64,000 bases of DNA from an uncultured Rhodothermaceae bacterium (GCA_964639665.1 CAZXEU010000121.1:48398-112397), one strand, 5' to 3'; shown: positions 1,349 to 59,211, counted from the stretch's first letter. The notes: generated from the letters alone by a model not told the origin. Program-made: numbers and translations.

Positions 1349-1585
1349 ATGGCTCGGACCTGACAGGGTTGGTGGTGCGGCGCGTTTGGGATTACATTCG
1401 GGCAACCATGATACAGCCGGCGGGACCCGGATACGTACCTGGCCGATCCGGTGCGCTTCCGCAAGCCCAGGAGTGTCGGGGAGCGTAGCCGTTTCATAAA
1501 TTCCGGTGCCTCGATGGCGGCGCCTCGCGCATTCCGGCGCGCGGCCCGGGTGCTTGCGAAAACGAAATCACGCGCGCTGCGGACC

Positions 1586-39409: not shown

Positions 39410-41590
39410 CTAGCGCAAAAAGGCTTCCGTCAGTCCCCCGTCGACGTTGAGAATCTGCCCCGTCGTCTTCGCGAGGCGCCTTCCCACCAGCAAGAAAATG
39501 GCTTCCGCCTGGTCAGCAGGTGAGATGGCCTGCTTGAGGAGGGTCCTTTCCGCGTAGAAGTCCGCAAGACGCTGCTGCAGCGTCGCGAGGTCCTCTGCTT
39601 CCTCGTACGGCAGTGCGTACCTGGCCAGCGAAGCCCGGACACGCTCCAGCGAAAACATGCCGCTGCCCTCAATCATGGTAGCCGGTGCCAGGCCGTTTAC
39701 GCGGACGTGCGGCGCCAGCGCCATTGCCAGCTCGCGAACGAGGTGGTTGGCGGCAGCCTTGCTCGCATCATAGGCGAGACTGCCCTTCTTGGGGACCGTG
39801 GCGTTGACGCTGGTCGTGACGACGAGACTGCCGGGAAGAGCCTGCTCCTGCCAGATGCGCCGCGCTTCGTCCGCGACCAGATAGGGTCCTGTCGCATTCA
39901 CCGCAAAGGAGTCGGCCCACGCCCTGTCGGGAACTTCGCCGCTGGGATCCGGGCTGACGTAAAGCCCCGACGTGATGACCAGATGGTCCAGTCCACCGTA
40001 GGCGAGCAGCAATTTGCGCAACGCCTCCCTGATGGAGTCCCGGTCCGTTACATCACAGGCCAGTCCTATGACCGCGCCGCTTCCCGAAATACCTGATCCT
40101 GCTACGCCAATGCCCATCCCGATCGCGCGAAGATTCTCTTCCGCGACCTCCCGCGCAGCGTCTTCCCGCAGGTCCATGGCTGCCACAGTCGCGCCTTCCG
40201 CCACAAGCCGGCCCACCGCAGCACGGCCGATGCCGCTGCCCGCACCGACCACCGCCACAATCTGGCGCGACAGCTCCATTTCCGGGGGCATGCGCTGCAG
40301 CTTTGCCTCTTCCAGGCTCCAATACTCGATGTCAAAGGCTTCCTGGCGGTCAAGTGCCGTGTACTTCGACACGGCTTCGGCTCCGCGCATGACGGCAACC
40401 GCCGCCTTGTAGAATTCTGCCGTTACCCGGCTTTCGCTCTTGGTCTTGCCCCAGGTGATCATGCCCACTCCGGGCACCAGCACTACCGTAGGATCCGCTA
40501 CGCGCATGGCAGGCGAATCCACCCGGCAATGTGCGCTGTAGTAGGCCGCGTAGTCGTCGCGGTAGCGGGCAATTCCTGCGTCCAGTTTCTTCCTGAGCGC
40601 CCGGACATCCTCCTTGCCGGGCTGCCAGTCTACGTACAGCGGCTTGATCTTCGTTCGCAGGAAATGATCCGGGCAGGAGGTCCCAAGCTCCGCCAGACGC
40701 TCCGCGTCCACGGAGTTCGCAAAGCGCAGGATCTCCTCGTCGTCCTCAAAGGTACCGATGAAGCGGCGAGTCGTGCTGACGCTCCCTCGAAGCCATGGCA
40801 GAATTGCGGCAAGCACGTCAGCCCTGTCCCCTTCGGATAGCGCCGTGCAGCGTGCTCCACCGAAGTCGTACGCGCCTGCGCCTGCGCTCTCCAGATATTG
40901 CGCCGCCCGCTCGATGAGCGCCAGGCTGAGCAGGTAGCATTCCCTGTCATCATCAGCCCAGTTGATGAGGCCGTGCCCGCCCAGCATCACTCCCTGTGCC
41001 TCCGGATATTCCCTGCAGACATTCTGCAGCTTCAGTCCGAGCTCGAAACCGGGCCTCTGCCAGTCTACCCATATCACGCTATCACCATAAATCTCCCTCG
41101 TGAGGGCCTCGCCGTGCGCGGCAGTGGCAAGCGCGATACAGGCCGTGGGGTGGGTATGGTCAACGTGCCGGTAGGGCACGAACGCATGAAGAGGCGTATC
41201 TATGGAGGGCGCGCGCGGATTCAGGTTGAAGGTGCACTGGCGGAAGAAGCCCACCATCCGGTCCTCGGCTTCGGTCTTGGGGCCCCGCTCCGGCATGCCC
41301 GCATAGACCTGCTGCAATGCCATCAGCCTGTCCAGATAAAGCGAGGCAAAATTTGCCTTCACCGACGTGCGCAAGTCGCCTCCCGAGCCCTTGACCCAGA
41401 GCACGGTTGTCGCTTCCCCGGTCAGTGGATCCGCTTCGACAAGCTTGGAGGAAGTATTGCCGCCGCCGGTATTTACAATTCGCCAGTCTGCGCCCAGGAG
41501 ATTGGACCGATATACGAGCCGCTCCACAGCGTCCAGCTCCCGGGCCTTTTCCGTGTCCCAGAGATCCTGCACGTGCCTGAACTCTTGCAT
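39410..41590 (-). CDS. Bifunctional class II aldolase / short-chain dehydrogenase (RhaEW / YuxG-like rhamnulose-1-phosphate aldolase-lactaldehyde dehydrogenase)
   Basis: The N-terminal aldolase domain has GGGNTSSK, VKGSGGDL and VDHTHP. The C-terminal SDR domain has VVGAGSGIGRA, the TSVNATVPKKGSLAYDASKAA (YxxxK) motif, and NVDGG. It is 726 aa. Confidence 0.85.
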   Translation of the reverse strand: MQEFRHVQDLWDTEKARELDAVERLVYRSNLLGADWRIVNTGGGNTSSKLVEADPLTGEATTVLWVKGSGGDLRTSVKANFASLYLDRLMALQQVYAGMPERGPKTEAEDRMVGFFRQCTFNLNPRAPSIDTPLHAFVPYRHVDHTHPTACIALATAAHGEALTREIYGDSVIWVDWQRPGFELGLKLQNVCREYPEAQGVMLGGHGLINWADDDRECYLLSLALIERAAQYLESAGAGAYDFGGARCTALSEGDRADVLAAILPWLRGSVSTTRRFIGTFEDDEEILRFANSVDAERLAELGTSCPDHFLRTKIKPLYVDWQPGKEDVRALRKKLDAGIARYRDDYAAYYSAHCRVDSPAMRVADPTVVLVPGVGMITWGKTKSESRVTAEFYKAAVAVMRGAEAVSKYTALDRQEAFDIEYWSLEEAKLQRMPPEMELSRQIVAVVGAGSGIGRAAVGRLVAEGATVAAMDLREDAAREVAEENLRAIGMGIGVAGSGISGSGAVIGLACDVTDRDSIREALRKLLLAYGGLDHLVITSGLYVSPDPSGEVPDRAWADSFAVNATGPYLVADEARRIWQEQALPGSLVVTTSVNATVPKKGSLAYDASKAAANHLVRELAMALAPHVRVNGLAPATMIEGSGMFSLERVRASLARYALPYEEAEDLATLQQRLADFYAERTLLKQAISPADQAEAIFLLVGRRLAKTTGQILNVDGGLTEAFLR

Positions 41591-41672
41591 GATTGATTCC
41601 GTCGTGTTAAGTGATTGACAACGGGGTACTGGAGAATGGGCCGTGCAGGCGCACCTGTCCCCGGGATTGGGC

Positions 41673-42974
41673 CTACGCGGACACCGTCACGGGTTGCGCT
41701 TCCCTGTAGCCCTTGAGGCCGTAGTGCAGAATGACCAGGAAACACACCAGGGGTACAAGGTACGCCATATGAATCCCGAACAAGTCGGATATCTGCCCCT
41801 GAATGGCCGTCAGCACAGCTCCTCCCAGAATGGCCATGATGAGGCCGGAAGCCCCGATCTTTGTGTCTTCGCCCAGGCCCTTGATGGCAAGCCCGTAGAT
41901 GGTCGGGAACATGAGCGACATGCATCCCGAAATGCCCACGAGCGCAAACGCGCCCACATATCCTCCCGCCATTACGACTACGCAGGTAAGGCCGGACGCC
42001 ATCGCCGCCATGGCCCACAACAACACGTGTGGACCGATGTATTTCATAAGACCCGTGCAGGCAAACCGAGCGGTTGAAAACAGCACGATGGAGGCGAGGT
42101 AATAGCTCGCCGCCGCCTCCTCATTCAGTTCCAGGTTCGACATGATGTAGCGAATCGTGAACGACCAAACGCCGATTTGCGCTCCCACGTAAAAGAACTG
42201 GGCCACGACCCCTTTCGTGTAGTGCTTCTGCCTGAGCAGGCGCCGGATGGTAGAGCCGATTCGCAGGGACTTGTCGCTTTCGCTGCCCTGGGGGAACCGG
42301 GTAACCGCGAATAGGACCCAAATCACGCCGATAACCAGCGCGACCACCACGTAGGGCCCCATGACGGCGGCCAGCTCACCCTGCTGCACCTGGCGGAGCT
42401 GATCAGCCGCCATCTGCGCCCGTTCCGCTTCCGTAGCCTGGTGCAGGCCCGAAAGGATGAAAAACTTGCCGATCAACACACCGGTGATGGAGCCGAGCGG
42501 ATTGAATGACTGGGCCAGGTTGAGCCTGCGCGTTGCCGTCTCCTCGGGCCCCATGACGATGGCATACGGATTCGCGCTCGTCTCCAGAATGGACAACCCG
42601 CCTGCCAGGATGAAGAGCGCCACAAGGAAGTGGCCGTAGACCATGGTCTGACTGGCAGGATAGAACAGCAGCGCGCCTGCGGCAAAAAGCCCCAGCCCCA
42701 ACAGCACACCGGCCTTGTAGGTGAACTTCCGGATGAATATTGCCGCCGGCAGAGCAAGGCAGAAATACGAACCGTAGAAGGCGACCTGGATCCAGGCAGT
42801 CTGGAAATCCGACATGCTCATGATCCGCTTGAAGGTCGCCAGGAGCACGTCCGTCATGTTGTTCGCCACGCCCCAGAGAGCGAACAGACTCGTCAGCAGT
42901 ATGAACGGAAACAGGTACTGGCGCGGCACTATGGGTATGCCGCGACGCGGTGTCGTGCTAGCTTCCTGGCTCAT
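41673..42974 (-). CDS. fucP: L-fucose:H+ symporter family MFS permease
   Basis: LFALWGVANNMTDVLLATFKRIMSMSDFQTAWIQVAFYGSYFCLALPAAIFIRKF is the characteristic FucP N-terminus. It has 12 TM helices. Confidence 0.9.
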   Translation of the reverse strand: MSQEASTTPRRGIPIVPRQYLFPFILLTSLFALWGVANNMTDVLLATFKRIMSMSDFQTAWIQVAFYGSYFCLALPAAIFIRKFTYKAGVLLGLGLFAAGALLFYPASQTMVYGHFLVALFILAGGLSILETSANPYAIVMGPEETATRRLNLAQSFNPLGSITGVLIGKFFILSGLHQATEAERAQMAADQLRQVQQGELAAVMGPYVVVALVIGVIWVLFAVTRFPQGSESDKSLRIGSTIRRLLRQKHYTKGVVAQFFYVGAQIGVWSFTIRYIMSNLELNEEAAASYYLASIVLFSTARFACTGLMKYIGPHVLLWAMAAMASGLTCVVVMAGGYVGAFALVGISGCMSLMFPTIYGLAIKGLGEDTKIGASGLIMAILGGAVLTAIQGQISDLFGIHMAYLVPLVCFLVILHYGLKGYREAQPVTVSA

Positions 42975-43082: not shown

Positions 43083-43868
43083 TCAAGGGGCGCTTGCACC
43101 GGCGCCGTGCCTGGCCAACATGCGCTGGCGATAGTGCTCATCGCTTCGGCCGGAAATGCGCTGCACATGATCCGCTTCCATGAAGATGGGCCCTCCGAGC
43201 CCGGCGGCGCCTACAAATATGCGAGCCGCCTTTTCGGCCATGGCCAAAGCCGCAGACACTTCTCCCGGATGTGAACCGACGGCAATAATGCCGTGGTTCT
43301 CCAGAAGAATGGTCTTGGGAATCATGCCGGTTTCGGTTCTGAAGGCTTCGACATCATCGCGTATCCGCCGGGCCAATTCCAACCCCGGATCCACATAGGG
43401 GACCAGTACGGAGGCCGGGCCGCAGTACACGACCTGATCGGGGATTACGCGCTCCTCGGCAAACTGCCGCTTCCACGGCGAGCAAAGAATCTGGTTTACG
43501 CAAATGGCGTGGACATGGCCCACGCACGCCACACCGGGAAGCCTCAGAAGCCACGCGTGGAAGAGCGTCTCTACCGATGGCTTGAGTGCGTGCTGATCGG
43601 TGCGGGAATCGAGCAGCAAGGCTTCGATCCCGGAGTCCGACATTCCATTCTCCGATTCGACGGCGGCCAGTACCGGCTCGCTGTCCACCTTAACCAGCTC
43701 GTTCGGTCGCAGCGTGCCCAGTCGCGTCCCGCTGGCTTTCACCAGGAAAAATCGCGCATCAATGCGGCCCGAAACATTGCCCTCGCCCAGGATGGACATG
43801 TGCCGTCCATCACCGAGTTCGTGGGCCAGCGAAACCAGATTGCTCCGGATGTCGGCCGAGCGCGCCAT
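43083..43868 (-). CDS. Class II aldolase/adducin-domain protein (261 aa), FucA-like candidate
   Basis: It has GEGNVSGRI, FLVKASGT, PSVETLFH, VGHVHA and ENHGIIAVG. Confidence 0.75.
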   Translation of the reverse strand: MARSADIRSNLVSLAHELGDGRHMSILGEGNVSGRIDARFFLVKASGTRLGTLRPNELVKVDSEPVLAAVESENGMSDSGIEALLLDSRTDQHALKPSVETLFHAWLLRLPGVACVGHVHAICVNQILCSPWKRQFAEERVIPDQVVYCGPASVLVPYVDPGLELARRIRDDVEAFRTETGMIPKTILLENHGIIAVGSHPGEVSAALAMAEKAARIFVGAAGLGGPIFMEADHVQRISGRSDEHYRQRMLARHGAGASAP

Positions 43869-43921: not shown

Positions 43922-45535
43922 TCAGCCGGTCTCTTGTTCGAGGCCGCTCTCTGTCCCGCAGACAAAGGTCTCTATGCCCAGGCTCTCGAACGTGGCAACC
44001 TTGGTCGCCAGCGCCTTGCGTGCTGCTGCCGCATCCGGCGCGTACGCTACCTGTATGTGATTGGCCTTGTGGCGCGCCATCATCTGGTCTCGCGAAACAC
44101 CGCAAGTCACTGCGTGCATGATCGGCCACTGAGGCGTGGTGAGCTGCCACCTGCGCTCTGTTTCCTCCCGCGGCAATTCCACCGCCCGGGCCATGCCCAC
44201 GTCTGCCTTGAGACACCCGTCTTCTACAAAAATGCGGCTCCAGACCACGTCGCCCGGCTTGCTGATGCCCTTAACGGTGCCACCGCCCAGGCGAAAGTAC
44301 ATATACGGCTGCCGCTCGCTGCTTGCGCCGGCGTATTCACCGTCAAAATGCGCAGGCGGCACAGCACCTGAAATCTCGAAGACCCATACAAATTGCCCGT
44401 TAAACGCCTCACCCCAGCGAAGGTCATGCAGCGTCGTCTCCGGAGCATAGCCCAGTTCGCGCCAGATGCGGTTGGTCACAAGCGCATCCAGGCCTGCACA
44501 CTCATCCACTTCGTTGAAGTGCGGAAGGGGCTCTCCCGCATACAGCTCCCGCGAGCCGTCCCGAGACAGGACGGGCGGCCGGTTCGTATTGTTCAGCAGG
44601 CCTTCCGCCAGATCTGATGCCGGAAGCAGGTCCTTGAGTCCCTGCTGATACTGGATGCCGATGGCGTCGCAGCCGAAGTCGTCCGCGATTCGAAGCGCGG
44701 CTATGTACATCTTGCACTGCAGAAGTACCTGGCGCTCGGTGAGATCCTCCGCTTCATTGGAGCCGAACTGAAACGTCATACCGCGGGCGGTGAGCCAGCC
44801 GAGGCAGGCCGCCGCCTCGGCATCCGGCACCTGCATAGCCTCGTAGTAGAGCGCGCTTTGGCTCAGGCGCTCCTTGAATACTCCCGTGCGGTTAAGCAGA
44901 TGGTCCGGGATGATGGCATTGAACATGCCCATACATCCCTCGTCGAAGACGCCCATGATGGCCTTGTCGCGCCTTAGGGCCGCGGCAAGCCTGGCACCGA
45001 GCTGCTCGGCCTCGGACGGCAACCGGAGTCCGGCTGCCGCACGTGCATGACCTACGTCGTGCGCAACCGTCCCGGTTTCCAGCCACGAGCGAAGACCTCT
45101 CTTGAAAAAGTCGTCCGAGAAGTCCTCGCTCCATAACGAGCTGTAGGATACGCCAGCAGTCGTCATGGAGCCGTTAAGATTGAGCATTCCAACGAGACCC
45201 GGCCATGTTCCGCTCCAGTTTGCGACCGTGAGGATGGGGCCTCGGTGTGTGGCGAGCCCAAGGAGTACATGGTGCGAATACTGCCAGGCAGCGCAAACCA
45301 CGACGAGCGGACTGTCAGTGTCAATGCTCCGAAACACGTCGCGACCATAGGTCTGGCTGTCTATGAACCCGTGTCCCGCGTCAGAATGGACCGCATGTCC
45401 TCGCTCCGCGCTGTACCCTTCCGCCTCTATGGCTCGCCGGACGGCACGCTCCACATTCGCCTGCTCAGGCCAGCACTTGCGGTTCGCGGACAGCCGCAAG
45501 TCGCCGCTTGCTATCAGGGTAACGGTCCTGGACAT
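43922..45535 (-). CDS. L-fucose isomerase family sugar isomerase
   Basis: Several segments align by eye with E. coli FucI as I remember it:
- [12 protein letters not shown], compared with ENDSLNGVAML
- LHDLRW, compared with FADVRTYW
- [13 protein letters not shown], compared with HEYFRGGGYSSRF
- [24 protein letters not shown], compared with [24 protein letters not shown]
- [11 protein letters not shown], compared with WGANHGVLTIGH. Confidence 0.75.
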
Positions 45536-45612: not shown

Positions 45613-45628
45613 ATGTTAAGCTTAACAT
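45613..45628. promoter_or_regulatory. Perfect 16-bp palindrome ATGTTAAGCTTAACAT, candidate LacI-family operator
   Basis: I read it directly and it is exactly self-complementary. It lies 78-93 nt upstream of the fucI-like ATG and 215 nt upstream of the divergent lacI-family gene. Its size and symmetry are typical of LacI/GalR operators. Confidence 0.5.
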
Positions 45629-45772
45629 GTACCTTGCAACATACTCTATTGGCCTGTTCCTGTCAAGCGTGTCCGCCAGCCCTCAGGCCAGATTCTGGCC
45701 CAACATTTCGTTCAACCCCGGATGTGGGCAACTGCGGCCTGTCTTGCGAACAATTTAATGCCGCGTGCCCTA

Positions 45773-45842: not shown

Positions 45843-46847
45843 ATGAGCACTATTCTTGACGTTGCCAGGGAGGCAGGCGTGAGCGCGATGACGGTATCGC
45901 GCTATTTCAACCAGCCGGAAATGCTTGCTCCGGCCACGACCGAGCGCGTGAAGGCTGCAATACAGCGATTGCAGTACGTGCCAAACGCAGCCGCGCGAAG
46001 CCTGATCAGCGGCCGCTCCAAGACGGTTGCCCTGATACTGGCGGACGTTGCCAATCCATTCTACACCACGATTGCGCGCGGAGTAGAAGATGTGGCCCAG
46101 GAGCACGACTACACGCTCATTCTCGGAAATACCGACGAATCGCGAGAAAAGGAGCGGCGCTACATCGACATCATCATTTCCAGACGCGTAGACGGCGTCA
46201 TCATCTCCTCCTCCCCGGGCAATGACCATCACTTCGGACTGCTGTTTCAGAAAGGCATTCCGGTCGTCCTGATTGACCGAATAGTCAGAGACATCGAAGC
46301 TGATGCCGTACGCGGGGACACATATACCGGCGGCCAGAAGCTTACAGACCATCTCATTGAACAGGGATTCAAGGATATTGCGCTCATTGGCGGATGGACG
46401 GGCGTCTCGTCCCTGGAAGAGCGAATGGCGGGCTATCGCCTGGCCATGGAGACGGCGGGACTTGTCCCCAAGGTGTATCCCGGTCGGACGGACCGGGAAA
46501 GCGGCGAGGAGATCACCCGACAGCTCCATGCATCCGGAAGCATGCCTGAGGCTGTCATCGCCGCCAACAACTATGTGGCAGTGGGCGCGCTGGTTGCCCT
46601 CCGGAAGCTTGGACTGCGTGTTCCGGAAGACGTGGCGTTGGCCACCTTTGACGACATCGAAAGCGCCGCACTGATATACCCGTTCCTTACAGTCGTCGCG
46701 CAACCGGCTTACGAGATGGGCGTCATGGCGATGCAGCTGCTTCTTGATCGCATGCACGGCTACTCGGGGCCTCCCCGGAGTCGCCTCCTACCCACAGAAA
46801 TGATTATTCGCAGTTCATCGCTCGCCCGGGCGGTGACACTGCACTGA
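45843..46847 (+). CDS. LacI-family transcriptional regulator
   Basis: It has the HTH ILDVAREAGVSAMTVSRYFN and YVPNAAARSL, followed by a periplasmic-binding-protein-like sugar domain. Confidence 0.9.
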   Translation: MSTILDVAREAGVSAMTVSRYFNQPEMLAPATTERVKAAIQRLQYVPNAAARSLISGRSKTVALILADVANPFYTTIARGVEDVAQEHDYTLILGNTDESREKERRYIDIIISRRVDGVIISSSPGNDHHFGLLFQKGIPVVLIDRIVRDIEADAVRGDTYTGGQKLTDHLIEQGFKDIALIGGWTGVSSLEERMAGYRLAMETAGLVPKVYPGRTDRESGEEITRQLHASGSMPEAVIAANNYVAVGALVALRKLGLRVPEDVALATFDDIESAALIYPFLTVVAQPAYEMGVMAMQLLLDRMHGYSGPPRSRLLPTEMIIRSSSLARAVTLH

Positions 46848-46893: not shown

Positions 46894-49503
46894 CTAACTG
46901 CCGGCAGCTTCGACCACAAAAGTCGTGGCCTCGCCCTGCGGGAACACCATACCTCCTTCGAATTCCCGCTGCCCGAACCCGTTCAGGTCAAAACCGTCCA
47001 GCGTCAGGCTCCCGTTCAGAGGCTCTAGCGTCACCGTCCTCCGCCGGCCGCCGCCGGAAATCCCCACGATTCCATACTCCCTGCCATTGGACCAGAAGTA
47101 CTCGCCAGAGTGTGGATTGAAGCCCATGCGCGCATCTACTGCGGAGTATTGGAACCCCGTGTATGCCAAAATGCCTGCCCACGCCGCCATGGCTCTGGAA
47201 TACCGGTGACCGTATTCTCCCTCATTGAACGGGTTTCTCTTGTGTCCGTCATAGCGGTCCCGAATAGCTCTGAATACCTTCAGTCCTGAATCTACCTCGC
47301 CCTCGTAGATAAGGTGCGCGGCCGTGCTGTACTCAAACCCCGTCATGATCTCCGTGTAGTACGGAAACGGGAAATCCAGCAACTCGCCCCTCGGGTAGCT
47401 CGCCATGAGCAATCCGGCCTCGCTGCCCAGCCCGAAGCTTCGGAAGGTATTGAAGTGCTCGTTGAAGTCCTCGATGTAATTGTATTTCATGATGCTGCGG
47501 AGCGTCGTCTTAACGTGCTCCGGATCAAGCAGATACCCGAGCCCTGCGGTATGGGCCAGGTACTGGCCGACCAGTTGGTCCACCAGACACCCCTTGCCCA
47601 GCTGCGCCACCTTGCTGGTTCCCTCCGGGATATGGTGCTCGTAGTATTCCCCGTTGAAGATATTGTCGTCTATCCAGGCGCGGCCCCGCTCGAACAGGTC
47701 TCTCGTTTCGTCCGCGAAGGCATCGTCTCCCAGGTGCCTTGCCATTTCCTCGGAGGCACGCAGCGCGCCTAGGTACCAGCCAGCCATCTGGGGATTGGGG
47801 CCCAGATAATTGATGTCCATGGTGTTGTGCTGGCTGCCCTCCATCACGCCGTCCTTGTCCTGGTCCCAAACGCCTGTCCATGCGAAGCTCATGGCCTTGC
47901 GAATATTGGGCCAGAGATTTTCGAGCATTTCGTCATCGCCCGAAAGCTGCCAGTCACGGTACATCTTGATAAGCGTGCCCATCTGGCCGTCCGCCGCCCG
48001 GTTCTGGAAGCTTCTTGCACGGCTATCGATCGGGAGCCCGACGCGATAGCTCATGCCACCGTCGTCATTTACCGAGTGACGGAATTCCACTTCCCGAAAC
48101 TTGAGTGCCAGATCGCCAAACAGGAAGGGAGTAGTCGACTCGTAATTCCACACGTGGAAGCACGTGCCAAAGCCCCATCCGGAGCTTTTGGAAGCACCAA
48201 TCGTGGTTCCCTGGATGCTGCCGGTTCCCTCGAATCCGAATGGAAGCCCATCGGCCGTTCGGAAGACCGTTTGGCTGCGCAGGTTGTTTAGATTGAACAG
48301 ACCCGCCTCTTTCAAGACGTCTGGCGCATCGCTCTCGACTAGCGCGCGAACAAACTGCACCGTCTCGGCTTCCAGCTCTTCCAGTTGGGCCCCCATCTGC
48401 TCGGCCACGGCCCAGGCATCGTCGTAGAGCGTCGTGTAGTAGTTACCGACAATTTCGGTCCCCCCGTATGCTCCCGCATGGTGGACGCCGTGATCCCAGG
48501 CGCGGCGATTCGGGAAATGCCAGGTCAGAAGAAACGTGACCTCTCTGGTCTGGCCGGGCTCAAGGTCAACCTTAACGGCCAGGGTCGCAGGCGGAGTCTG
48601 AATGGCGCGCGCCGTGTCCGGATGGTCGGTCAACTCACCGTCTGCGATGAAGTCATCCCAGAATTCACGGAAGGTCCAATTCCAGCCCAGCGGCGCCCAG
48701 GATGTTCTGTGCGAGACCATACCCGGGCTATTGGTTGCCAGGGCCATGGTGCCCCAATTCACATCGAGTGAATCGACGCCTTCTGACGTCATGAATATGC
48801 CCGCAAGGCCACCCGCGACTCTATACTCATTAACGTTGTTGTTCGGTGCGCCCGTCCATCCATCCGCCCCGATATAATTTGGCACCATGCCCACAACTGC
48901 CGCCTCCAGTGCCTCGGCGGATTGGTTGGTAAGGACGTACCGCAGTACGGCGACCGGGATGCCGCTCTTGTCGGCGTCGCCTACGATGAGCGGGTTAAAC
49001 GCTTCGAGCCGCACGTCCACGGGTACGTCGGAGTGCTCGAACTGCACCTGGGCCAGCGGATAGGCTGCCGCAAACTTTGTGCTCTGAAAGCGCGGAAAAC
49101 CTGAATTGACCGCATCGGCGCCCCAGTCCCCGCTGTGCTCCCGCGCAGGCACCGGGCCTTCCAGTACACGGACCTCGCCCGACGTGTCGCTTTGGCTGTA
49201 GTAAAGGGCAAAGAAAGGGCCGTTGGCAATGGTCGGTAGCACAAGCTTGAACGCGGGCAGATAGCCAAGTGCCCCCCTGTTCATCAATTCCCAGTCGCGA
49301 AGATCCCCCCGGCCGCCAACCGAAACCGTGCCTGTGCCAATGCCTCCGAGTGGCATCGCGACTTCGTCCAGATACTGCCCCGAATACGTCCGGAGGACCG
49401 GCCAATCGGCATTCCACTTGGGTGACGTTGTTGGCTGGACGCACGACGATACTGCCAGAAGCAAGGCCCCGGCCAGAAGCTGTTGGAACCGCGAGTTCAT
49501 CAT
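46894..49503 (-). CDS. GH116-family (GBA2/DUF608-type) glycoside hydrolase, secreted
   Basis: It has the N-terminal [28 protein letters not shown] signature and a C-terminal (alpha/alpha)6 catalytic region. The lipoprotein-like signal [13 protein letters not shown] follows the ATG at 49503. Confidence 0.8.
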
Positions 49504-49609
49504 CTGCAGGGCCGTGCGGTTTTTGACAGTCTGGTCCCGAGTGTGCGTGCGGCCAGCCCCGGCGTGACACAAACCCGGGCAAGGGAGACGCTCGCGACCA
49601 ACAGTTTAT

Positions 49610-51160
49610 CTAGTGTCCGGGATTCTGCGTTACAACGCCTCCGGAGATATCGATTTCCAACTGCGGAATAGGATACACTAGGCGTTCCGGCGTCAGAGAG
49701 AAGCTGGTCGGGCCGCCATAATTGGAAATCCTCTGGAAGGTGCTTTGCTGCGCGTTCAATTGCGCGTTCATGATGGCGATCGTCTGCGCCTCGGGCAGCC
49801 GCAGTAGATCAAACCACCGGTGTGCCTCAAAGGCAAATTCCAATCTGCGCTCCTTCATCAGCTTCTCCATGAACGTGCCTGCCGTGCTCGCTTCGATATC
49901 CGGGAGCCCGGCTCGCCTTCGAACCTGGTTGATGAGGGAATACGATTCAGCCCCCTCTCCCACGGCCTCCGCCAGTGACAACAGCACATCGGCATACCGC
50001 AGCAAGACGAGATTCACGTCAGCGCCGTCCGACTCCGCACTCGTATCGATGAACTTGGTGATGTATCCGCCTGGTTCGCGGCCCGGGATGGTACCGAACG
50101 TATACGGAATTCTAAGATCGTTCGGGTCGTCGAAGGCATTGATCAAGTCCTGCGTGGCAAACGGAAAAAGGATCGCCCGTGTGGAGCCTCCGGCTACGAT
50201 ACCCAGGTCGTTGGCAACGCTCTGCGGAATAAAATGCTGCCGGAAGAGTCCGGTCTGATTCGCGGGGTTAAAGCTGACCTCGAAGATGGACTCTGCCGTA
50301 TTGTTGTTGCCGGGGCCGTGTATCATACCATAGTCGCTGAGCAGAGAGTATTCGCCGAGCACCGGGCGCAGGGCGGAAACCGCCGCTCCCGCATTGTCGC
50401 GCTGCAATTCCACCTTCCCGAGCAATGTCAGGGCAGCAAAGCGGGTGGCCCTGCCTACTTCGTTGCCGGCACTGCCGTCGTAGGTTCCGGGAAGCGCCGC
50501 CGCGGCTTCCGTGAGATCCTGCACGATCTGATCGTAGACCTGGGCCGCCGTGGAACGCTCCACTACAGTTTGCTCAAAATCATCGGTTGGCGTGATTCTA
50601 AGCGGTACGCCTCCCCAGAGATTGACCATGTGGTAGTAGGTAAACGCTCGAACGAATTTGGCTTCGCCTACGATGCGCCCGATAAGGCCCGCGTTTCCCT
50701 CGGCCTCCGGGCCTCGAACGATTACCGTGTTGGCCAGATTAATGCAGTTGTACATGGAGGCCCAAGTGATATCCAGCAGCAGGTTTCCGGGCACCTCCGC
50801 AAATATGTCCGTTGCCACACGCTCGGCCTGGTCCGTGTGGTCCAGGCCGGCATTGTCGGACCGTCCCTCCATAATGTTATAGATGGTCCCGCTCCCGTAA
50901 ATTGATCTTTGCGCGCCGTACACGCCGGTCATCCCGATCAGGAGCTCCTGATCGGTAGAAAAGAACGATGGAGCATCGATCCTGTCGACCGGCTCCACGT
51001 CCAGGAAGCTGTCACACGATGGCCCGGCCAAGAGAGCCAGGAGCGCAATAGCCAAGGCCCTCAGGCCGCGTACTGGAAAGTGTTGCCGATCATGCTGCAG
51101 TGAGGTTGGACCTCCATGCGCGGGCCCCGACGGCACTCTCGCGTTATTCCACGATTTCAT
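49610..51160 (-). CDS. susD: SusD/RagB-family nutrient-binding outer membrane lipoprotein
   Basis: It lies directly after susC. It has the lipobox LLAGPSC followed by DSFLDVEPVDRI, TPR-like helices, and RRLEFAFEAHRWFDLLR. Confidence 0.9.
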   Translation of the reverse strand: MKSWNNARVPSGPAHGGPTSLQHDRQHFPVRGLRALAIALLALLAGPSCDSFLDVEPVDRIDAPSFFSTDQELLIGMTGVYGAQRSIYGSGTIYNIMEGRSDNAGLDHTDQAERVATDIFAEVPGNLLLDITWASMYNCINLANTVIVRGPEAEGNAGLIGRIVGEAKFVRAFTYYHMVNLWGGVPLRITPTDDFEQTVVERSTAAQVYDQIVQDLTEAAAALPGTYDGSAGNEVGRATRFAALTLLGKVELQRDNAGAAVSALRPVLGEYSLLSDYGMIHGPGNNNTAESIFEVSFNPANQTGLFRQHFIPQSVANDLGIVAGGSTRAILFPFATQDLINAFDDPNDLRIPYTFGTIPGREPGGYITKFIDTSAESDGADVNLVLLRYADVLLSLAEAVGEGAESYSLINQVRRRAGLPDIEASTAGTFMEKLMKERRLEFAFEAHRWFDLLRLPEAQTIAIMNAQLNAQQSTFQRISNYGGPTSFSLTPERLVYPIPQLEIDISGGVVTQNPGH

Positions 51161-51179: not shown

Positions 51180-54100
51180 TTAATACGTTAAGTGGATGCC
51201 GGCCGTCCACACTCGCGGCAGTGGCAAGTGAGGAGGACTCGTCAATCCGATTTCCCTTCCGTCTCCTACACCGGGAATCCGGGATCCGCCGAAGAGGGAG
51301 GGGCCGCCCGCCGAATTCCGTCTACCTTCGGGATTGCCTCCAATGAAGCTTGTCCACATATGGACATTCTCCATAGACGTGTAGATTCTTCCACGGACGC
51401 CTCCGACGCCGAGTCCGCGAAGCAGACTTTGGGGCAGCGTGTAAGTCAACGTGACGTTGCGGAGTCGGAGAAAGTCTGTGTCCTGGATGCCAAGGCTCGA
51501 AACGGCACCAATACCGGTATCGAATCCCGAGGCGCTGGGCGTCTTGCCGTCGCCGGGCTGACTTTCCGATATGTACCGGCCATCGTACCAGAATTTCTTG
51601 GAAAGATTGACCCGGCGGAAAGGCGCACCGATTTGGATTATGTAGAGATCCAGGACGGAGGCACCCGCCTGGCCGTTGAATCGAACACTGAGGTCGAAAT
51701 TCTTGTACCGGACGTTGGTGTGGAATCCGTAGATATAGTCCAGATTCGTGCCTTCCAGATTCACGCCGTCCGGCCCCAGGAAGTTACTGATCGAACCGTC
51801 ACCGTCGGCATCTCTGTAGACCATCGTGCCGGGCTGCGCACCTGGCTGCGCCGGATGCGAGTCCCCTTCCCGCACGATGCCCACGTGCTCAACGACGTGG
51901 ATGTTCTGCAACTCACCTCCGACCGTGCGTCTTAGTGCACCGAAAAAGTTTCGGATCTCGTCATCCCCGCCCAAGTCCAGGATTTCCTGGTTGTTGTTGG
52001 TCACGTTGCCGCCCACTGTCCAGCCGAAATCACGGGTGTCCAATACGGAAACGGTGGCTGCCAGCTCGATGCCGTCGTTGCGCATGCTTCCGATATTGGT
52101 AAGAAAGCCGCCGTAGCCGGACGAGGCTACGATATTGCGAGACAGGAGTAGACTGGTGGTCACATTGTTGTAGTAATCCAGCACCATGCTGTAGCGGCCG
52201 TCCATGAGCGTCAGGTCGAGCCCGATGTCCAGCTGCTCCGACGTCTCCCAGGTCAGGCCAGGGTTGCCCGGGTCAGCGATGGCTACCCCGGTCAATTGCG
52301 TGGCCCCGAGCGCGTGATTGACTGGTCTTAGACTGGGTCGCGCAATGAAGTCCGGAATGGCGTTGCTGCCCGTGGAGCCGTACGACACACGCAATTTCGC
52401 GTCGTTGACAAAACCCAGCGCCTTGATGAATTCCTCCTCCGAGAGCCGCCACCCTAGTGCAAATGAGCCAAAGGTCTGGTAGCGATTATTGGCCCCGAAT
52501 CTAGAGCTCCCGTCCCGCCGTACCGTGGCTGTCAGCAGGTACCTGTCCCTGAATGAATAGTTGAGCCGCCCGAGAGCAGAGGCGATGGCGTTTTCGCCGA
52601 AGCCGTTGCTGGATGTGAGGGTCTCCGAATCGCCAATCGACAAGATCCGCGCACCCGGAATCTGCAGTCCTGCCACATTCGAGGAAACGAATTCCAATCG
52701 GTCTTGCTGCAAGGTGAAGCCAGCCAGCACGTCGAAGAAGTGATCCCGTCCGACCTGCCTGCGGAAATTGACCGTGTTTTCGTTCAGCCACCCCCTTTGC
52801 CACACCTGCCCCACGTTCAGCGTACTTACCGCCGGAAAGCTGAATCGGGGGGTGCCGGGAGGAGCGTCATACAGCGTTTCATTCTTGTTGGACCCGATAT
52901 TGGTGGACAAGATTGACTTGAGAATAATGCCGGCAACAGGCTCCACCTCCAGGCTTACGCCTCCCAGCATCCTGAACAGGTCGTGCGTGCGCTTGAAGCG
53001 CTCAATGGTCTGCAAGGGGTTGCCGATCGGGAAATTGCCCGGCACGTAGCTGCCGATGGCGTAAGATCCGTCGGGATTGTGGATGGGAATGATAGGGGGC
53101 AGCAGTATGGCCTGAGCCCACGCGGACCTCCAGTCGCTTCCATCCTCGCTGGGCGGACTGGACTTCAGGATCCTGGACACACTTGGTGCCACATTCAGCC
53201 CGAAGGTTATCCTGTCGTTGGGACGATAGTCCAGTTTGAGGCGAGCCCCGACCTTGTTATACCCCTCCTCAGGTATGACTCCGGCTTCTTCCGTATAGTT
53301 GCTTGAGAGCAGATAGGAGACTTTTTCGGTTCCTCCGTGCGCAGAGAGGGACCAGTTTTGAAACGGCGCCGATCGGTAGAGTTCATCCTGCCAGTCCGTA
53401 TCTGTGGCGCCGTCCCACACGCTCGAAATCCAGTCTGGTGTCACGCCGCCGTTTTTTTCCGTATGAAATTGCACGTATTCCGCGGCATTGAGCATTTCGA
53501 AACGCGAGCTAGTCGGGATACTCGACACGCCCGTGTTCATGTCAAAGTTGATTTGCGCCGTTCCGATGCGGCCCGACTTCGTGGTAACAATGATGACGCC
53601 ATTGGCCCCTCGAGAACCGTAGATGGCCGTTGCAGACGCATCCTTCAGCACGTCGATCGATTCGATATCCGCGGGATTGAGCATCTGGGCATTCCGCTGG
53701 TCAGTCGGAAACCCGTCGATTACCCACAAGGGCTCGTAGCCCGCCGAGAGGGTTCCGATGGCGCGGATCGAGATCTGAGCCAGATCACCCGGATTGGCAC
53801 TCCGGTCGGCCACGTTGAGGCCGGGTACAAGGCCTTGCAGGGCCTTCTCTACCGACGCGACGGGACGGGACTCAAAATCCGTAGCCGAAATAGAGACTAT
53901 TGACCCGGTGACGTCCCTGCGCAGCTGCGTGCCATAACCCGTGACGACAACCTCCTCGAGCCTCGCCACATCTTCCTCCATGACTACATCAATGGTGGTC
54001 CGTCCGTCTATGGCCACATCCTGCGTGACGAAGCCGATAAACGAGAATACCAGCGTGGTCGCGTCGTCGGGTACGGTAATCACATACTCTCCATCTATGT

Positions 54101-54314
54101 TGGTAGCCGTCCCGATATTGGTTTCCGCAAGGCGCACAGTCGCACCGCTCAGGGGATCTCCGTCGGTGTCTGTCACCGTGCCCGAAATGGTCACATCCGG
54201 GCTCGGCGCCAACGAGTCCCGCGACTCGCCGTAGGCCGGCGGCATTGCCAGGCCGATGCACAGCACGAGGAGAGCCGGCAGTCCGGATATCTTGCAGTGG
54301 CGTTCAGCATCCAT
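51180..54314 (-). CDS. susC: SusC/RagA-family TonB-dependent outer membrane transporter
   Basis: It has the carboxypeptidase-regulatory-like domain ISGTVTDTDGDPLSGATVRL..TNIGTATNIDGEY, the plug VVVTGYGTQLRRDVTGSI, and ATAIYGSRGANGVIIVTTK. It is 1044 aa. Confidence 0.95.
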   Translation of the reverse strand: MDAERHCKISGLPALLVLCIGLAMPPAYGESRDSLAPSPDVTISGTVTDTDGDPLSGATVRLAETNIGTATNIDGEYVITVPDDATTLVFSFIGFVTQDVAIDGRTTIDVVMEEDVARLEEVVVTGYGTQLRRDVTGSIVSISATDFESRPVASVEKALQGLVPGLNVADRSANPGDLAQISIRAIGTLSAGYEPLWVIDGFPTDQRNAQMLNPADIESIDVLKDASATAIYGSRGANGVIIVTTKSGRIGTAQINFDMNTGVSSIPTSSRFEMLNAAEYVQFHTEKNGGVTPDWISSVWDGATDTDWQDELYRSAPFQNWSLSAHGGTEKVSYLLSSNYTEEAGVIPEEGYNKVGARLKLDYRPNDRITFGLNVAPSVSRILKSSPPSEDGSDWRSAWAQAILLPPIIPIHNPDGSYAIGSYVPGNFPIGNPLQTIERFKRTHDLFRMLGGVSLEVEPVAGIILKSILSTNIGSNKNETLYDAPPGTPRFSFPAVSTLNVGQVWQRGWLNENTVNFRRQVGRDHFFDVLAGFTLQQDRLEFVSSNVAGLQIPGARILSIGDSETLTSSNGFGENAIASALGRLNYSFRDRYLLTATVRRDGSSRFGANNRYQTFGSFALGWRLSEEEFIKALGFVNDAKLRVSYGSTGSNAIPDFIARPSLRPVNHALGATQLTGVAIADPGNPGLTWETSEQLDIGLDLTLMDGRYSMVLDYYNNVTTSLLLSRNIVASSGYGGFLTNIGSMRNDGIELAATVSVLDTRDFGWTVGGNVTNNNQEILDLGGDDEIRNFFGALRRTVGGELQNIHVVEHVGIVREGDSHPAQPGAQPGTMVYRDADGDGSISNFLGPDGVNLEGTNLDYIYGFHTNVRYKNFDLSVRFNGQAGASVLDLYIIQIGAPFRRVNLSKKFWYDGRYISESQPGDGKTPSASGFDTGIGAVSSLGIQDTDFLRLRNVTLTYTLPQSLLRGLGVGGVRGRIYTSMENVHMWTSFIGGNPEGRRNSAGGPSLFGGSRIPGVGDGREIGLTSPPHLPLPRVWTAGIHLTY

Positions 54315-54416
54315 ATCTACATCTCCGTGTATCTGGATTGGTTCGTACCCGATTCGGGCGATTGGCAGATGGGGCCGTCATCATGGCGCATGCACTACCA
54401 TCAACGTTGCACCCTT

Positions 54417-54430
54417 TGTTAACGATAACA
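54417..54430. promoter_or_regulatory. TGTTAACGATAACA, an imperfect palindrome of the same family as the 45613 operator, in the susC leader
   Basis: It has the same TGTTAA-NN-(T/A)TAACA architecture, with one arm mismatch. It lies 103-116 nt upstream of the susC ATG, in an AT-rich patch. Confidence 0.4.
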
Positions 54431-54439
54431 TTCTATCTT

Positions 54440-54453
54440 GACTTGCGCAAGTC
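54440..54453. promoter_or_regulatory. Perfect 14-bp palindrome GACTTGCGCAAGTC upstream of susC
   Basis: It is exactly self-complementary and lies 126-139 nt upstream of the susC ATG. Its motif differs from the TGTTAA family. Its function is unknown. Confidence 0.3.
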
Positions 54454-55003
54454 TTTCGCATATCAATGCAAAAAAATGGAGACACACGTTGGCGACGCGC
54501 AGCGGCCAAACGGATTTCAGTGGGCTTGAGCGGTTCTCCTCGGAGCGGATTTGGTGGTGTGCCTCATTGGATAACGGAGCCGCCACGCTGACCCGGGGCA
54601 GGAATGGCAGCACCCGGTCCAGGATCGAATACCATCGCGAAAACGGAGGATGCTGCCCTTCTTGGACCGCGGATCCTGAATGGCAGGCATGACAACAGAG
54701 TGTCGATGGCTGGACCACAGGCCAACGACGGAGCCCTTTGGGCTCTTGGGCCTTCGAGCAGGCATGAGTTTTTGAAGGCAGATTGCTCCTGCATCCGCAA
54801 CCGGACGATGCAGATCTATTCACTTCAGGCCCGTTCCAGCCGCCCGCAGGGCTCCCGGCTGCGGTGCCCGGGCGCGGTCCACGTCAGGTAGGATGCCGCC
54901 ACCTGGCCAACTCTGCGCCGGAGGCCAACCGCAATTTCAGGTACTCGCCGACCTTGCCCCTCAAGACTGGCGCATCACCCAGACCACAGGGCGCCGCCGC
55001 GCA

Positions 55004-56248: not shown

Positions 56249-56416
56249 GGCTTCCTCCATCGATTTCATATTCGAAAATAGCACAGATCTCAAACTCTGC
56301 AGATTCCGGCAAACACTCCTGTACGTGACAGCCACGGACAGAGCCTCCGCGGCCTGCGGGGAATCCACCCGTGCAATCGGGATGATCGTGGCGCCGGGGA
56401 GACAGCGACAGGAGCT

Positions 56417-59134: not shown

Positions 59135-59211
59135 CGAACCGCTCCTGTTCTTTCTGGTCAATTCCGGTTGCTCATACTGCCTACCCGGCAAGCTTCCGCC
59201 CTGGCCGCGCG

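What the first reader, a model, noticed from the sequence alone, without database searches (positions are those of the whole stretch)
54402..54453. Palindrome cluster in the susC leader shares the TGTTAA/TTAACA motif, suggesting one LacI regulon links the PUL and the catabolic operon
Three palindromes lie within 52 nt of an AT-rich patch about 90-140 nt upstream of susC:
- CAACGTTG (54402-54409)
- TGTTAACGATAACA (54417-54430)
- GACTTGCGCAAGTC (54440-54453)

The middle one has the same half-site and spacing as the perfect palindrome at 45613 (TGTTAA-GC-TTAACA), with a single arm mismatch. In this GC-rich sequence such AT-rich hexamers are rare.

I saw no hybrid two-component sensor, SusR, or ECF sigma/anti-sigma pair (the usual PUL regulators) in the window. 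Control of a SusC/D locus by the neighbouring LacI-family repressor would therefore be the simplest reading. It would tie glycan import to monosaccharide catabolism.
Basis: partly seen in the sequence, partly recalled or inferred. Interest (0 to 1): 0.55.

Follow-up and report, generated by a model that had tools for sequence, protein, structure and literature searches.

The report
LacI operator upstream of susC
A 14-base palindrome about 100 bases upstream of a SusC/SusD glycan-import operon is very probably a binding site for the neighbouring LacI-type repressor, which also has a site at a deoxy-sugar catabolic operon, so import and breakdown share one switch; this kind of wiring is already known.

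Summary
The three palindromes are present as described. The reference palindrome starts at 45614, not 45613.

Only the middle palindrome, TGTTAACGATAACA at 54417-54430, is meaningful.
- It fits a core motif, TGTTA-N4-TAACA.
- That core occurs exactly twice in the 64-kb window against about 0.005 expected. One copy lies upstream of susC. The other lies just downstream of a clear TTGACA-N17-TATGTTG promoter of the fucI-like operon.
- A matrix built only from sites in other genomes scores these two sites at 25 bits. The next best position in the window scores 9.6.

The same motif accompanies orthologues of the neighbouring LacI-family protein (54-95% identical, with invariant HTH and hinge) in at least ten other lineages.
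- It almost always lies at the fucI-like gene.
- In five lineages it also lies upstream of SusC-like genes, including non-orthologous ones.

No HTCS, SusR or ECF/anti-sigma gene is in the window, and SusC has no STN domain.

CAACGTTG is at chance level. GACTTGCGCAAGTC is conserved only in the closest relative and may carry a weak -35.

It is a new member of a known kind (LacI-controlled PULs and TonB-dependent receptor loci) and of moderate-to-low interest.

The parts
54417..54430 (.). Predicted LacI-family operator upstream of susC: TGTTAACGATAACA, an exact match to the core TGTTA-N4-TAACA with a central CG. It ends 102 nt before the susC ATG.
   Evidence: It scores 25.0 bits with a matrix trained only on other genomes. 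It is identical in L001, and equivalent sites lie upstream of SusC in L082, L012, L083 and L091.
45614..45627 (.). Predicted LacI-family operator of the fucI-like operon: the perfect palindrome TGTTAAGCTTAACA. It lies 78 nt upstream of the fucI-like start and 215 nt upstream of lacI.
   Evidence: 24.9 bits. The same position is conserved in L001, L002, L003, L081, L082, L083, L090 and L091.
45637..45666 (-). Promoter of the fucI-like operon: TTGACA (45666-45661), 17-nt spacer, TATGTTG (45643-45637). The operator starts 9 nt downstream of the -10 box.
   Evidence: Read from the sequence. The same TTGAC(A/T)-N17-TAnnTTG-then-operator layout is seen in nine lineages. TAnnTTG and TTGACA are enriched on the sense strand of Rhodothermales upstream regions.
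45843..46847 (+). LacI-family transcription factor (334 aa), the predicted repressor of both operators.
   Evidence: Pfam LacI HTH plus Peripla_BP_1/3/4. It falls below every NCBIfam equivalog cut-off. The HTH VSAMTVSRYFN and hinge YVPNAAARSL are near-invariant in orthologues down to 54% identity.
51180..54314 (-). SusC/RagA-type TonB-dependent transporter, first gene of the susC-susD-GH116 operon. It has no STN domain.
   Evidence: Pfam. NCBIfam TIGR04056 scores 758 bits against a cut-off of 368.
49610..51160 (-). SusD-family lipoprotein. It starts 19 nt after the susC stop.
   Evidence: Pfam SusD_RagB and SusD-like_3.
46894..49572 (-). GH116 glycoside hydrolase. It starts 37 nt after susD and is convergent with lacI.
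   Evidence: Pfam Glyco_hydr_116N plus the GH116 catalytic domain.
43922..45535 (-). fucI-like sugar isomerase (537 aa), first gene of the catabolic operon and the constant companion of this LacI subfamily.
   Evidence: Weak Pfam Fucose_iso_C match. It is 62-95% identical next to LacI orthologues in L001-L003, L081-L083, L088 and L090-L092.
43083..43868 (-). Class II aldolase-family protein.
   Evidence: Pfam Aldolase_II.
41673..42974 (-). FucP-type L-fucose:H+ symporter (MFS).
   Evidence: NCBIfam TIGR00885 scores 470 bits against a cut-off of 280.
39410..41590 (-). Bifunctional rhamnulose-1-phosphate aldolase / short-chain dehydrogenase (RhaEW type).
   Evidence: NCBIfam NF006189 scores 1042 bits against a cut-off of 634. 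Pfam Aldolase_II plus adh_short. The enzyme family was characterised in PMC3870299.
54440..54453 (.). Perfect 14-bp palindrome GACTTGCGCAAGTC. It is a conserved island and a candidate weak -35 (TTGCGC, 54450-54445, minus strand), 17 nt from TATCGT (54427-54422) inside the operator. Its function is not established.
   Evidence: one of two intergenic 14-bp perfect palindromes. (conserved in L001 with one change that breaks the symmetry). Absent in L082 and L012.
54402..54409 (.). 8-bp palindrome CAACGTTG, at chance level and probably just part of the conserved 5' leader.
   Evidence: 5.5 such palindromes per kb, equal to simulation. Not conserved in L082 or L012.

Best explanation
The window comes from an uncultured Rhodothermales bacterium. 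TGTTAACGATAACA at 54417-54430 is an operator for the LacI-family regulator encoded 7.6 kb away at 45843-46847.

The same protein is predicted to bind the perfect palindrome at 45614-45627. That site sits 9 nt downstream of the -10 box of the fucI-like / aldolase / FucP / RhaEW operon.

Proposed mechanism:
- Without its sugar effector, the dimeric repressor occupies both operators. It blocks RNA polymerase at or just after the promoter.
- This shuts off the catabolic operon and the susC-susD-GH116 operon together.
- When a cytoplasmic sugar or pathway intermediate accumulates (identity unknown, probably of the fucose, rhamnose or arabinose type), the repressor leaves both sites.
- Outer-membrane glycan capture and monosaccharide catabolism are therefore induced together, by the end product and not by a periplasmic oligosaccharide sensor.

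Shown here:
- The motif, its rarity, and its positions.
- Its co-occurrence with the LacI orthologue group and with SusC-like genes across genomes.
- The fucI-like promoter architecture.

Inferred:
- That this LacI protein is the binder.
- Repression as the mode of action.
- The effector.
- The susC promoter.
For: 1. Rarity. The exact core occurs twice in the window against 0.005 expected. Across 1.68 Mb of window plus fetched loci it occurs 18 times against 1.4 expected. All 18 are in true intergenic DNA, and none is in about 60 non-Rhodothermales GH116 loci.

2. Independent matrix. A matrix trained without the window's sites gives 25.0 and 24.9 bits for the two sites. The third-best position scores 9.6.

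3. Linkage to the transcription factor. Loci fetched through LacI orthologues carry the motif.
- L081 (79% identical), L082 (75%), L083 (61%), L090 (61%), L091 (58%, three sites), L086 (55%) and L088/L092 (54-55%, tandem sites beside lacI) all have it.
- L001-L003, fetched through GH116, have it as well.
- The HTH and hinge residues are near-invariant across these orthologues.

4. SusC targets. Sites lie upstream of SusC in window/L001, L082, L012, L083 and L091. The last two SusC proteins are only 30-33% identical to this one.

5. Geometry.
- In nine lineages the operator lies 0-10 nt downstream of TTGAC(A/T)-N17-TAnnTTG, or overlaps it.
- Both window sites lie 78-116 nt from the start codons. 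More than 75% of predicted LacI-family sites fall between -140 and -30 (PMC4052901).

6. Footprint. Between the window and L001 the distal spacer has diverged to about 60-70% identity. The operator and leader are nearly identical.

7. No competing regulator. Pfam found no other PUL regulator in the window, and SusC has no STN domain.
Against: - There is no binding or expression data. The organism is uncultured.
- L004-L006 keep the LacI orthologue beside GH116 but have no motif within the fetched 22 kb.
- L084/L085 (57% orthologue) also lack the motif.
- A Rhodothermales clade with the order GH116 then SusC/D (L009, L013-15, L043, L049) has neither LacI nor the motif nearby. Control of this SusC is therefore evolutionarily labile.
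- L007, L008, L010, L012 and L039 have the motif but no LacI gene inside the fetched stretch, so linkage there is unverified.
- No good sigma-70-like promoter was found for susC in the window. The best candidate, TTGCGC-N17-TATCGT, is weak.
- The central dinucleotide differs between the two sites (CG versus GC), so affinities may differ.
- A second regulator acting in trans, or one encoded beyond position 64000, cannot be excluded.
Confidence: 0.8

Rival explanations
1. Chance resemblance. The susC-leader palindrome is just one of many imperfect palindromes in an AT-rich promoter patch and has no relation to the 45614 site.
For: 150 14-mers with at most one unpaired position exist in the window. 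Promoter regions are AT-rich, which favours AT-rich matches. 3 to 5 of 100 shuffles gave at least 2 loose matches.
Against: The exact core is expected 0.005 times per window. An external matrix gives 25 bits against 9.6 for the next best. The motif recurs upstream of SusC-like genes in four further lineages and is absent from AT-richer control loci.
Confidence: 0.03
2. The motif is a real operator, but it is bound by a different transcription factor and not by the adjacent gene. That factor could be another LacI paralogue or another dimeric HTH protein encoded elsewhere.
For: Five Rhodothermales loci (L007, L008, L010, L012, L039) have the motif without a LacI gene in the fetched 22 kb. L004-L006 have the LacI gene without the motif. 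L090 carries two LacI paralogues side by side.
Against: Nine of the eleven lineages fetched or recognised through the LacI orthologue have the motif within 10 kb, often in the lacI-proximal intergenic region (L088/L092 have tandem sites 71-89 nt from lacI). The DNA-reading residues are invariant. The motif has the typical LacI-family even-palindrome form (PMC4052901).
Confidence: 0.1
3. Dual control. The LacI operator gives only part of the regulation. The conserved GACTTGCGCAAGTC block binds a second factor (an activator or a global carbon regulator), or an HTCS or ECF system encoded elsewhere supplies the glycan-specific signal.
For: The -35 candidate is weak, which is typical of activator-dependent promoters. 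The 14-bp perfect palindrome is one of only two intergenic ones in the window and is a conserved island in an otherwise diverged spacer. Layered control by a sensor plus a monosaccharide repressor is known for the B. thetaiotaomicron arabinan system (cited in PMC7641319).
Against: The single substitution in L001 breaks the symmetry instead of preserving it. The block is absent from L082 and L012. No candidate second regulator is in the window or in syntenic relatives.
Confidence: 0.2
4. The site is mainly a promoter element (a -10-like TATCGT/TAACA box), and its palindromic look is incidental.
For: TATCGT inside the site lies 17 nt from TTGCGC. In L090 and L088 the operator overlaps the TAnnTTG box.
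Against: At the fucI-like promoters the motif is clearly separate from TTGACA-N17-TAnnTTG and downstream of it. Both half-sites are conserved symmetrically in 23 sites, which a -10 box would not require.
Confidence: 0.05

Closest known systems
SuxR, the LacI/GalR-family repressor of the sux sucrose CUT locus in Xanthomonas campestris (PMC1790865)
   Same: A cytoplasmic LacI-family repressor encoded in the locus controls a TonB-dependent outer-membrane transporter operon (suxAB) together with an MFS inner-membrane transporter. The imported sugar induces the locus.
   Different: It is a proteobacterial TBDR without a SusD partner, and its substrate is a disaccharide. Here the target is a SusC/SusD pair with GH116 in Rhodothermales. 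The second target is a deoxy-sugar catabolic operon. Nothing here has been tested experimentally.
LacI-family genes embedded in Bacteroidota PULs, such as the alpha-glucan PUL of Gramella forsetii (PMC4069401). LacI is listed among PUL regulator families (PMC7641319, introduction).
   Same: A lacI gene lies adjacent to susC/susD and glycoside hydrolases, in place of SusR, an HTCS or an ECF system.
   Different: In those cases the operators are generally not defined. Here an operator motif is defined by comparative genomics and links the PUL to a separate catabolic operon.
AusR, the GntR-family repressor of the alginate PUL in Zobellia galactanivorans (PMC7641319)
   Same: A one-component cytoplasmic repressor has operators at both PUL and catabolic genes and is relieved by a degradation product.
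   Different: It belongs to a different transcription-factor family with a different operator type, and it has been validated experimentally.
Monosaccharide regulons of Bacteroides thetaiotaomicron: LacI-family KdgR, UxaR, UxmR and UxuR, and GntR-family FucR (PMC3878776)
   Same: Local sugar-responsive transcription factors control monosaccharide catabolism in a SusC/D-rich organism.
   Different: In B. thetaiotaomicron fucose is controlled by a GntR-family FucR. The regulator here is an unnamed LacI subfamily that falls below all NCBIfam equivalog cut-offs. Its closest solved relatives are RbsR, CcpA and PurR.
Canonical LacI-family operators (PMC4052901)
   Same: An even palindrome, 78-116 nt upstream of the start codon, with symmetric half-sites.
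   Different: The central pair is degenerate: CG 7, GC 5, GG 5, CC 4, TA 1 and CA 1 among 23 sites. In that survey 1173 of 1303 LacI-family motifs have a consensus central CG, and only 29 are degenerate.

Membership tests
LacI/GalR-family repressor-operator system | N-terminal LacI-type HTH DNA-binding domain | tested here: met
   Pfam PF00356 at residues 3-48, E = 2.4e-17. The public record's shorter start (P0001, 322 aa) cuts off helix 1. The 334-aa start matches all orthologues.
LacI/GalR-family repressor-operator system | C-terminal periplasmic-binding-protein-like effector domain | tested here: met
   Peripla_BP_3, Peripla_BP_1 and Peripla_BP_4. Full-length matches to RbsR, CcpA and PurR structures.
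LacI/GalR-family repressor-operator system | Hinge helix with a conserved Leu that inserts at the operator centre | tested here: met
   YVPNAAARSL is conserved in all 12 orthologues aligned. That this Leu corresponds to Leu54 of PurR is from general knowledge and was not modelled here.
LacI/GalR-family repressor-operator system | Even palindromic operator, usually with a central CG | tested here: inconclusive
   The operator is an even palindrome, aTGTTAaSSTTAACAt. The susC site has a central CG and the fucI-like site has GC. The centre is degenerate across sites, which is a minority class in PMC4052901.
LacI/GalR-family repressor-operator system | Operator in the promoter-proximal zone (about -140 to -30 from the start codon) | tested here: met
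   The gap from operator to start codon is 78 nt for the fucI-like gene and 102 nt for susC.
LacI/GalR-family repressor-operator system | Specific DNA binding that is relieved by a small-molecule effector | not testable with these tools
   This needs EMSA or footprinting with purified protein and candidate sugars.
SusC/SusD polysaccharide utilization locus | Adjacent susC-like TBDR and susD-like genes | tested here: met
   TIGR04056 for SusC and Pfam SusD_RagB for SusD, with a 19-nt gap between them.
SusC/SusD polysaccharide utilization locus | Co-located carbohydrate-active enzymes | tested here: met
   GH116 lies immediately downstream. Three sulfatases, DUF6786 and a conserved 932-aa unknown protein lie upstream.
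PUL controlled by HTCS, SusR or ECF-sigma/anti-sigma | A gene for such a regulator in or next to the locus | tested here: not met
   None was found among the ORFs scanned across the window. None was found in syntenic relatives that extend past the window edge.
PUL controlled by HTCS, SusR or ECF-sigma/anti-sigma | N-terminal STN signalling domain on SusC (for trans-envelope signalling) | tested here: not met
   The SusC domains are CarboxypepD_reg, Plug and barrel only.

The most novel reading that the evidence does not exclude
This unnamed LacI subfamily, with operator aTGTTAaSSTTAACAt, may define a widespread and undescribed regulon. Its constant core would be a fucI-like isomerase, usually with DUF6786, GH172 or GH116, sulfatases and sugar transporters.

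The regulon would have repeatedly captured unrelated SusC/SusD pairs. In some Rhodothermales it would also have captured PSCyt/DUF1549/DUF1553-DUF1501 operons.

In these apparently sponge-associated bacteria, whole sulfated-glycan foraging systems would then be switched by a cytoplasmic end-product sensor and not by the periplasmic HTCS, SusR or ECF sensors that dominate the PUL paradigm. The adjacent GACTTGCGCAAGTC element might add a second input.
Probability: 0.4. Interest if true: 0.5.

Novelty: new member of a known kind. Interest (0 to 1): 0.33.

Why it matters
- It gives a concrete, testable operator and regulon for an uncharacterised LacI subfamily in uncultured Rhodothermales.
- It ties poorly known genes (the fucI-like isomerase, DUF6786, a 932-aa protein with no family match, and GH116) to a single inducible pathway.
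- It adds a defined operator to the so far mostly annotation-level statement that LacI-type regulators can control SusC/D loci.
- It does not change the general picture of PUL regulation.

Tried and rejected
- **DNA beyond position 64000.** I tried to fetch it through the window's own proteins. The sulfatase with two alternative starts and the exact LacI record P0001 were all 'not on record'. The region past the window is judged only from relatives (L002-L006, L081).
- **Promoter scan.** The sigma-70 consensus scan of 54200-55100 found nothing, and only one weak terminator-like hairpin.
- **Rfam.** A search of the 690-bp spacer found no RNA family at E <= 1. The 134-aa ORF at 54419-54823 has no Pfam match and is taken as spurious.
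- **L004-L006.** A search for the motif or any shared palindrome upstream of lacI found none.
- **Other SusC clade.** Aligning the susC upstream region with the GH116-then-SusC clade showed no homology, only a TTGTTAACAA-like patch that does not fit the motif.
- **Bacteroidetes-type promoter.** A TAnnTTTG -7 box as the susC promoter was not supported. TAnnTTG with TTGACA fits these genomes better.
- **Half-site at 41605.** A TGTTAA half-site upstream of RhaEW has no partner half-site.
- **Literature.** Searches for Rhodothermus promoter consensus and for sponge Rhodothermales sulfatases returned nothing useful.

Full report
**Observation**

- CAACGTTG at 54402-54409.
- TGTTAACGATAACA at 54417-54430.
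- GACTTGCGCAAGTC at 54440-54453.

SusC is on the minus strand (51180-54314), so the cluster lies 88-139 nt upstream of its ATG. It sits in a 37%-GC patch of a 61.5%-GC window.

**Gene map**

Pfam and NCBIfam scans give this order on the minus strand:
- three sulfatases, with an ankyrin-repeat gene among them;
- a 932-aa protein with no family match;
- DUF6786;
- a 690-bp spacer;
- SusC, SusD and GH116.

The LacI-family gene follows on the plus strand (45843-46847), convergent with GH116. It is divergent from a minus-strand operon:
- a fucI-like isomerase;
- a class II aldolase;
- FucP, above the NCBIfam cut-off;
- RhaEW-type rhamnulose-1-P aldolase/dehydrogenase, also above the cut-off.

No HTCS, SusR or ECF/anti-sigma gene appears anywhere in the window. 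SusC has no STN domain.

**Chance**

- Eight-base perfect palindromes occur 5.5 times per kb, as in simulated sequence. CAACGTTG therefore means nothing on its own.
- Twelve 14-bp perfect palindromes occur, against 6.5 +/- 2.9 expected. Only 45614 and 54440 are intergenic.
- The middle site is one of 150 near-palindromes, so palindromy alone is not the argument. The argument is sequence identity.
- TGTTAANNTTAACA with up to 2 mismatches hits only these two places (expected 0.29).
- The core TGTTA-N4-TAACA is matched exactly by both. A first-order Markov model expects 0.005 such matches per window.

**Relatives**

A scan with GH116 returned 80 loci. The window is from a Rhodothermales MAG lineage. 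L001 is 95-98% identical in protein and has the same gene order. Gene order is fluid among the other loci:
- L002-L006 lack SusC/D between DUF6786 and GH116.
- L009, L013-15, L043 and L049 have GH116 followed by SusC/D, with no LacI gene.

The core motif recurs in intergenic DNA of many Rhodothermales loci:
- L002 and L003: at the fucI-like gene.
- L012: upstream of SusC.
- L008: upstream of GH116.
- L007, L010 and L039: 98 nt upstream of a PSCyt/DUF1549/DUF1553-DUF1501-SDR-sugar-SBP operon.

**Linking motif to regulator**

I searched the LacI protein and fetched the contexts of orthologues from 79% down to 54% identity. Motif hits:

| Locus | LacI identity | Motif sites |
|---|---|---|
| L081 | 79% | fucI-like / lacI spacer |
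| L082 | 75% | fucI-like gene; SusC 5' region (1 mismatch each) |
| L083 | 61% | fucI-like gene; SusC |
| L090 | 61% | 33 nt before the fucI-like gene |
| L091 | 58% | three exact sites: fucI-like gene, GH172, SusC-like gene |
| L086 | 55% | divergent promoter region of a non-phosphorylative fucose-type pathway beside an alpha-L-fucosidase |
| L088, L092 | 54-55% (70% GC) | tandem sites between a sugar ABC operon and lacI-fucU |
| L084, L085 | 57% | none |
| L004-L006 | 75-77% | none |

Further points:
- The SusC-like proteins of L083 and L091 are only 30-33% identical to this SusC. Different SusC/D pairs have therefore been drawn into the same regulon.
- The recognition helix (VSAMTVSRYFN) and the hinge (YVPNAAARSL) are near-invariant across the orthologues. 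This fits a shared operator.
- Across 1.68 Mb of window plus loci there are 18 exact core matches against 1.4 expected. All are truly intergenic, and none is in the roughly 60 non-Rhodothermales GH116 loci.
- A matrix built only from other genomes' sites scores the window's two sites at 25.0 and 24.9 bits. The next best position scores 9.6.
- The symmetrised logo from 23 sites is aTGTTAaSSTTAACAt, with a degenerate G/C centre.

**Mechanism**

At the fucI-like genes of nine lineages the layout is the same. TTGAC(A/T), 17 nt and TAnnTTG are followed by the operator, which lies 0-10 nt downstream or overlaps the -10 box.

In the window this is TTGACA (45666-45661), a 17-nt spacer and TATGTTG (45643-45637), then the operator 9 nt later. 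That is a classical repressor position.

TAnnTTG (56 sense against 16 antisense) and TTGACA (25 against 6) are enriched on the sense strand of Rhodothermales upstream regions. The counts are inflated by related loci.

For susC the promoter is not clear:
- The consensus scan finds none.
- The best fit is TTGCGC-N17-TATCGT, which puts the -10 inside the operator and the -35 inside the GACTTGCGCAAGTC palindrome.
- Comparison with L001 supports a functional block. The distal spacer has diverged, and L001's spacer is 1078 bp against 690 bp here.
- Conservation resumes at GAAGACTTGCG(C/G)AAGTC, and is almost complete from the operator to the ATG.
- The one substitution in the palindrome breaks its symmetry.
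- Neither flanking palindrome exists in L082 or L012.

I therefore treat only 54417-54430 as the operator. The 14-bp palindrome is a possible promoter element or second-factor site. CAACGTTG is incidental.

**Comparison with what is known**

- LacI-family motifs are typically even palindromes, mostly with a central CG, and more than 75% lie between -140 and -30 (PMC4052901). The sites here fit, apart from the degenerate centre.
- LacI is listed among PUL regulator families (PMC7641319).
- The alpha-glucan PUL of G. forsetii has lacI next to susC/D (PMC4069401).
- SuxR is a proven LacI/GalR repressor of a TonB-dependent receptor locus (PMC1790865).
- AusR is a proven one-component repressor that couples an alginate PUL to catabolism (PMC7641319).
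- In B. thetaiotaomicron, LacI-family factors control monosaccharide pathways, and fucose is under a GntR-family FucR (PMC3878776).
- The regulator here falls below all named NCBIfam equivalogs.

This is therefore a new member of a known kind of regulation, not a new mechanism.

**Limits**

- Nothing was tested experimentally.
- I could not read beyond position 64000.
- Some orthologue loci lack the motif, and some motif-bearing loci lack a LacI gene within the fetched stretch.
- The effector is unknown. The FucP, RhaEW and fucI-like genes here, and the GH172, FGGY-kinase and FucU genes in relatives, point to a fucose-, rhamnose- or arabinose-type sugar.

**Verdict**

Confidence is about 0.8 that 54417-54430 is an operator shared with the fucI-like operon and bound by the neighbouring LacI-family protein. 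Interest is about 0.33.

Noticed in passing
window 1451-5524 (+): The DNA polymerase III alpha subunit (DnaE, 1357 aa) carries an intein. Pfam Intein_splicing matches residues 831-951, between the finger and HHH domains.
   Followed up: no
window 60713-61333 (-): A 206-aa ankyrin-repeat protein (Ank_2, E = 8e-52) is embedded between two sulfatase genes of the PUL-linked operon. The 607-aa 'sulfatase' ORF at 59212-61035 therefore probably starts later, near the twin-arginine-like SRRSFL motif. Several related MAGs have sponge-style isolate names, which suggests a host-associated lifestyle.
   Followed up: partly
window 45637-45666; L002, L003, L081-L083, L086, L088, L090: The promoters in these Rhodothermales look like a hybrid: a sigma-70-type -35 (TTGACA), a 17-nt spacer, and a Bacteroidetes-like TAnnTTG box. 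TAnnTTG is 56 sense against 16 antisense in upstream regions. I found no description of this in the held literature.
   Followed up: partly
L007 13141, L010 15533, L039 14198: The same operator motif sits 98 nt upstream of a planctomycete-type PSCyt1/DUF1549/DUF1553 plus DUF1501 gene pair, followed by an SDR and a sugar-binding protein. This suggests that these poorly understood proteins belong to a sugar-responsive regulon in some Rhodothermales.
   Followed up: partly
window 56417-59215 (-) and 55004-56368 (-): A 932-aa protein with no Pfam or NCBIfam match and a DUF6786 protein travel together with GH116, SusC/D and sulfatases across Rhodothermales and many Bacteroidota loci. DUF6786 also accompanies the LacI orthologue in L082, L083, L090 and L091.
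   Followed up: partly
window 45843-46847 versus public protein P0001: The public record's version of this LacI protein is 322 aa and starts at MSAMTVSRY. This removes the first helix of the HTH. All orthologues support the 334-aa start, MSTILDVA....
   Followed up: yes
L082 16799-19916 (-): The SusC orthologue (76% identical) is called as two genes of 315 and 661 aa. This is either a frameshift in a long-read assembly or a pseudogene. The called start at 19916 overlaps the predicted operator, so the true start is probably the ATG about 134 nt downstream.
   Followed up: no
L010 12827-14068 (+): A Mutator-family transposase is inserted between GH116 and the downstream operon. It is absent at the same place in the near-identical arrangements of L007 and L039.
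   Followed up: no
window 54315-55003 versus L001 4108-5184: The spacer between DUF6786 and susC is 690 bp here but 1078 bp in the 95-98% identical relative. It is far more diverged than the flanking genes. It has no ORF with a family match and no Rfam hit. Its origin is unexplained.
   Followed up: partly
window 38620-39285, 43083-43868, 39410-41590 (-): There are three class II aldolase-domain genes in or next to the catabolic operon, but no sugar kinase is visible in the window. Relatives carry an FGGY kinase next to the LacI gene.
   Followed up: no
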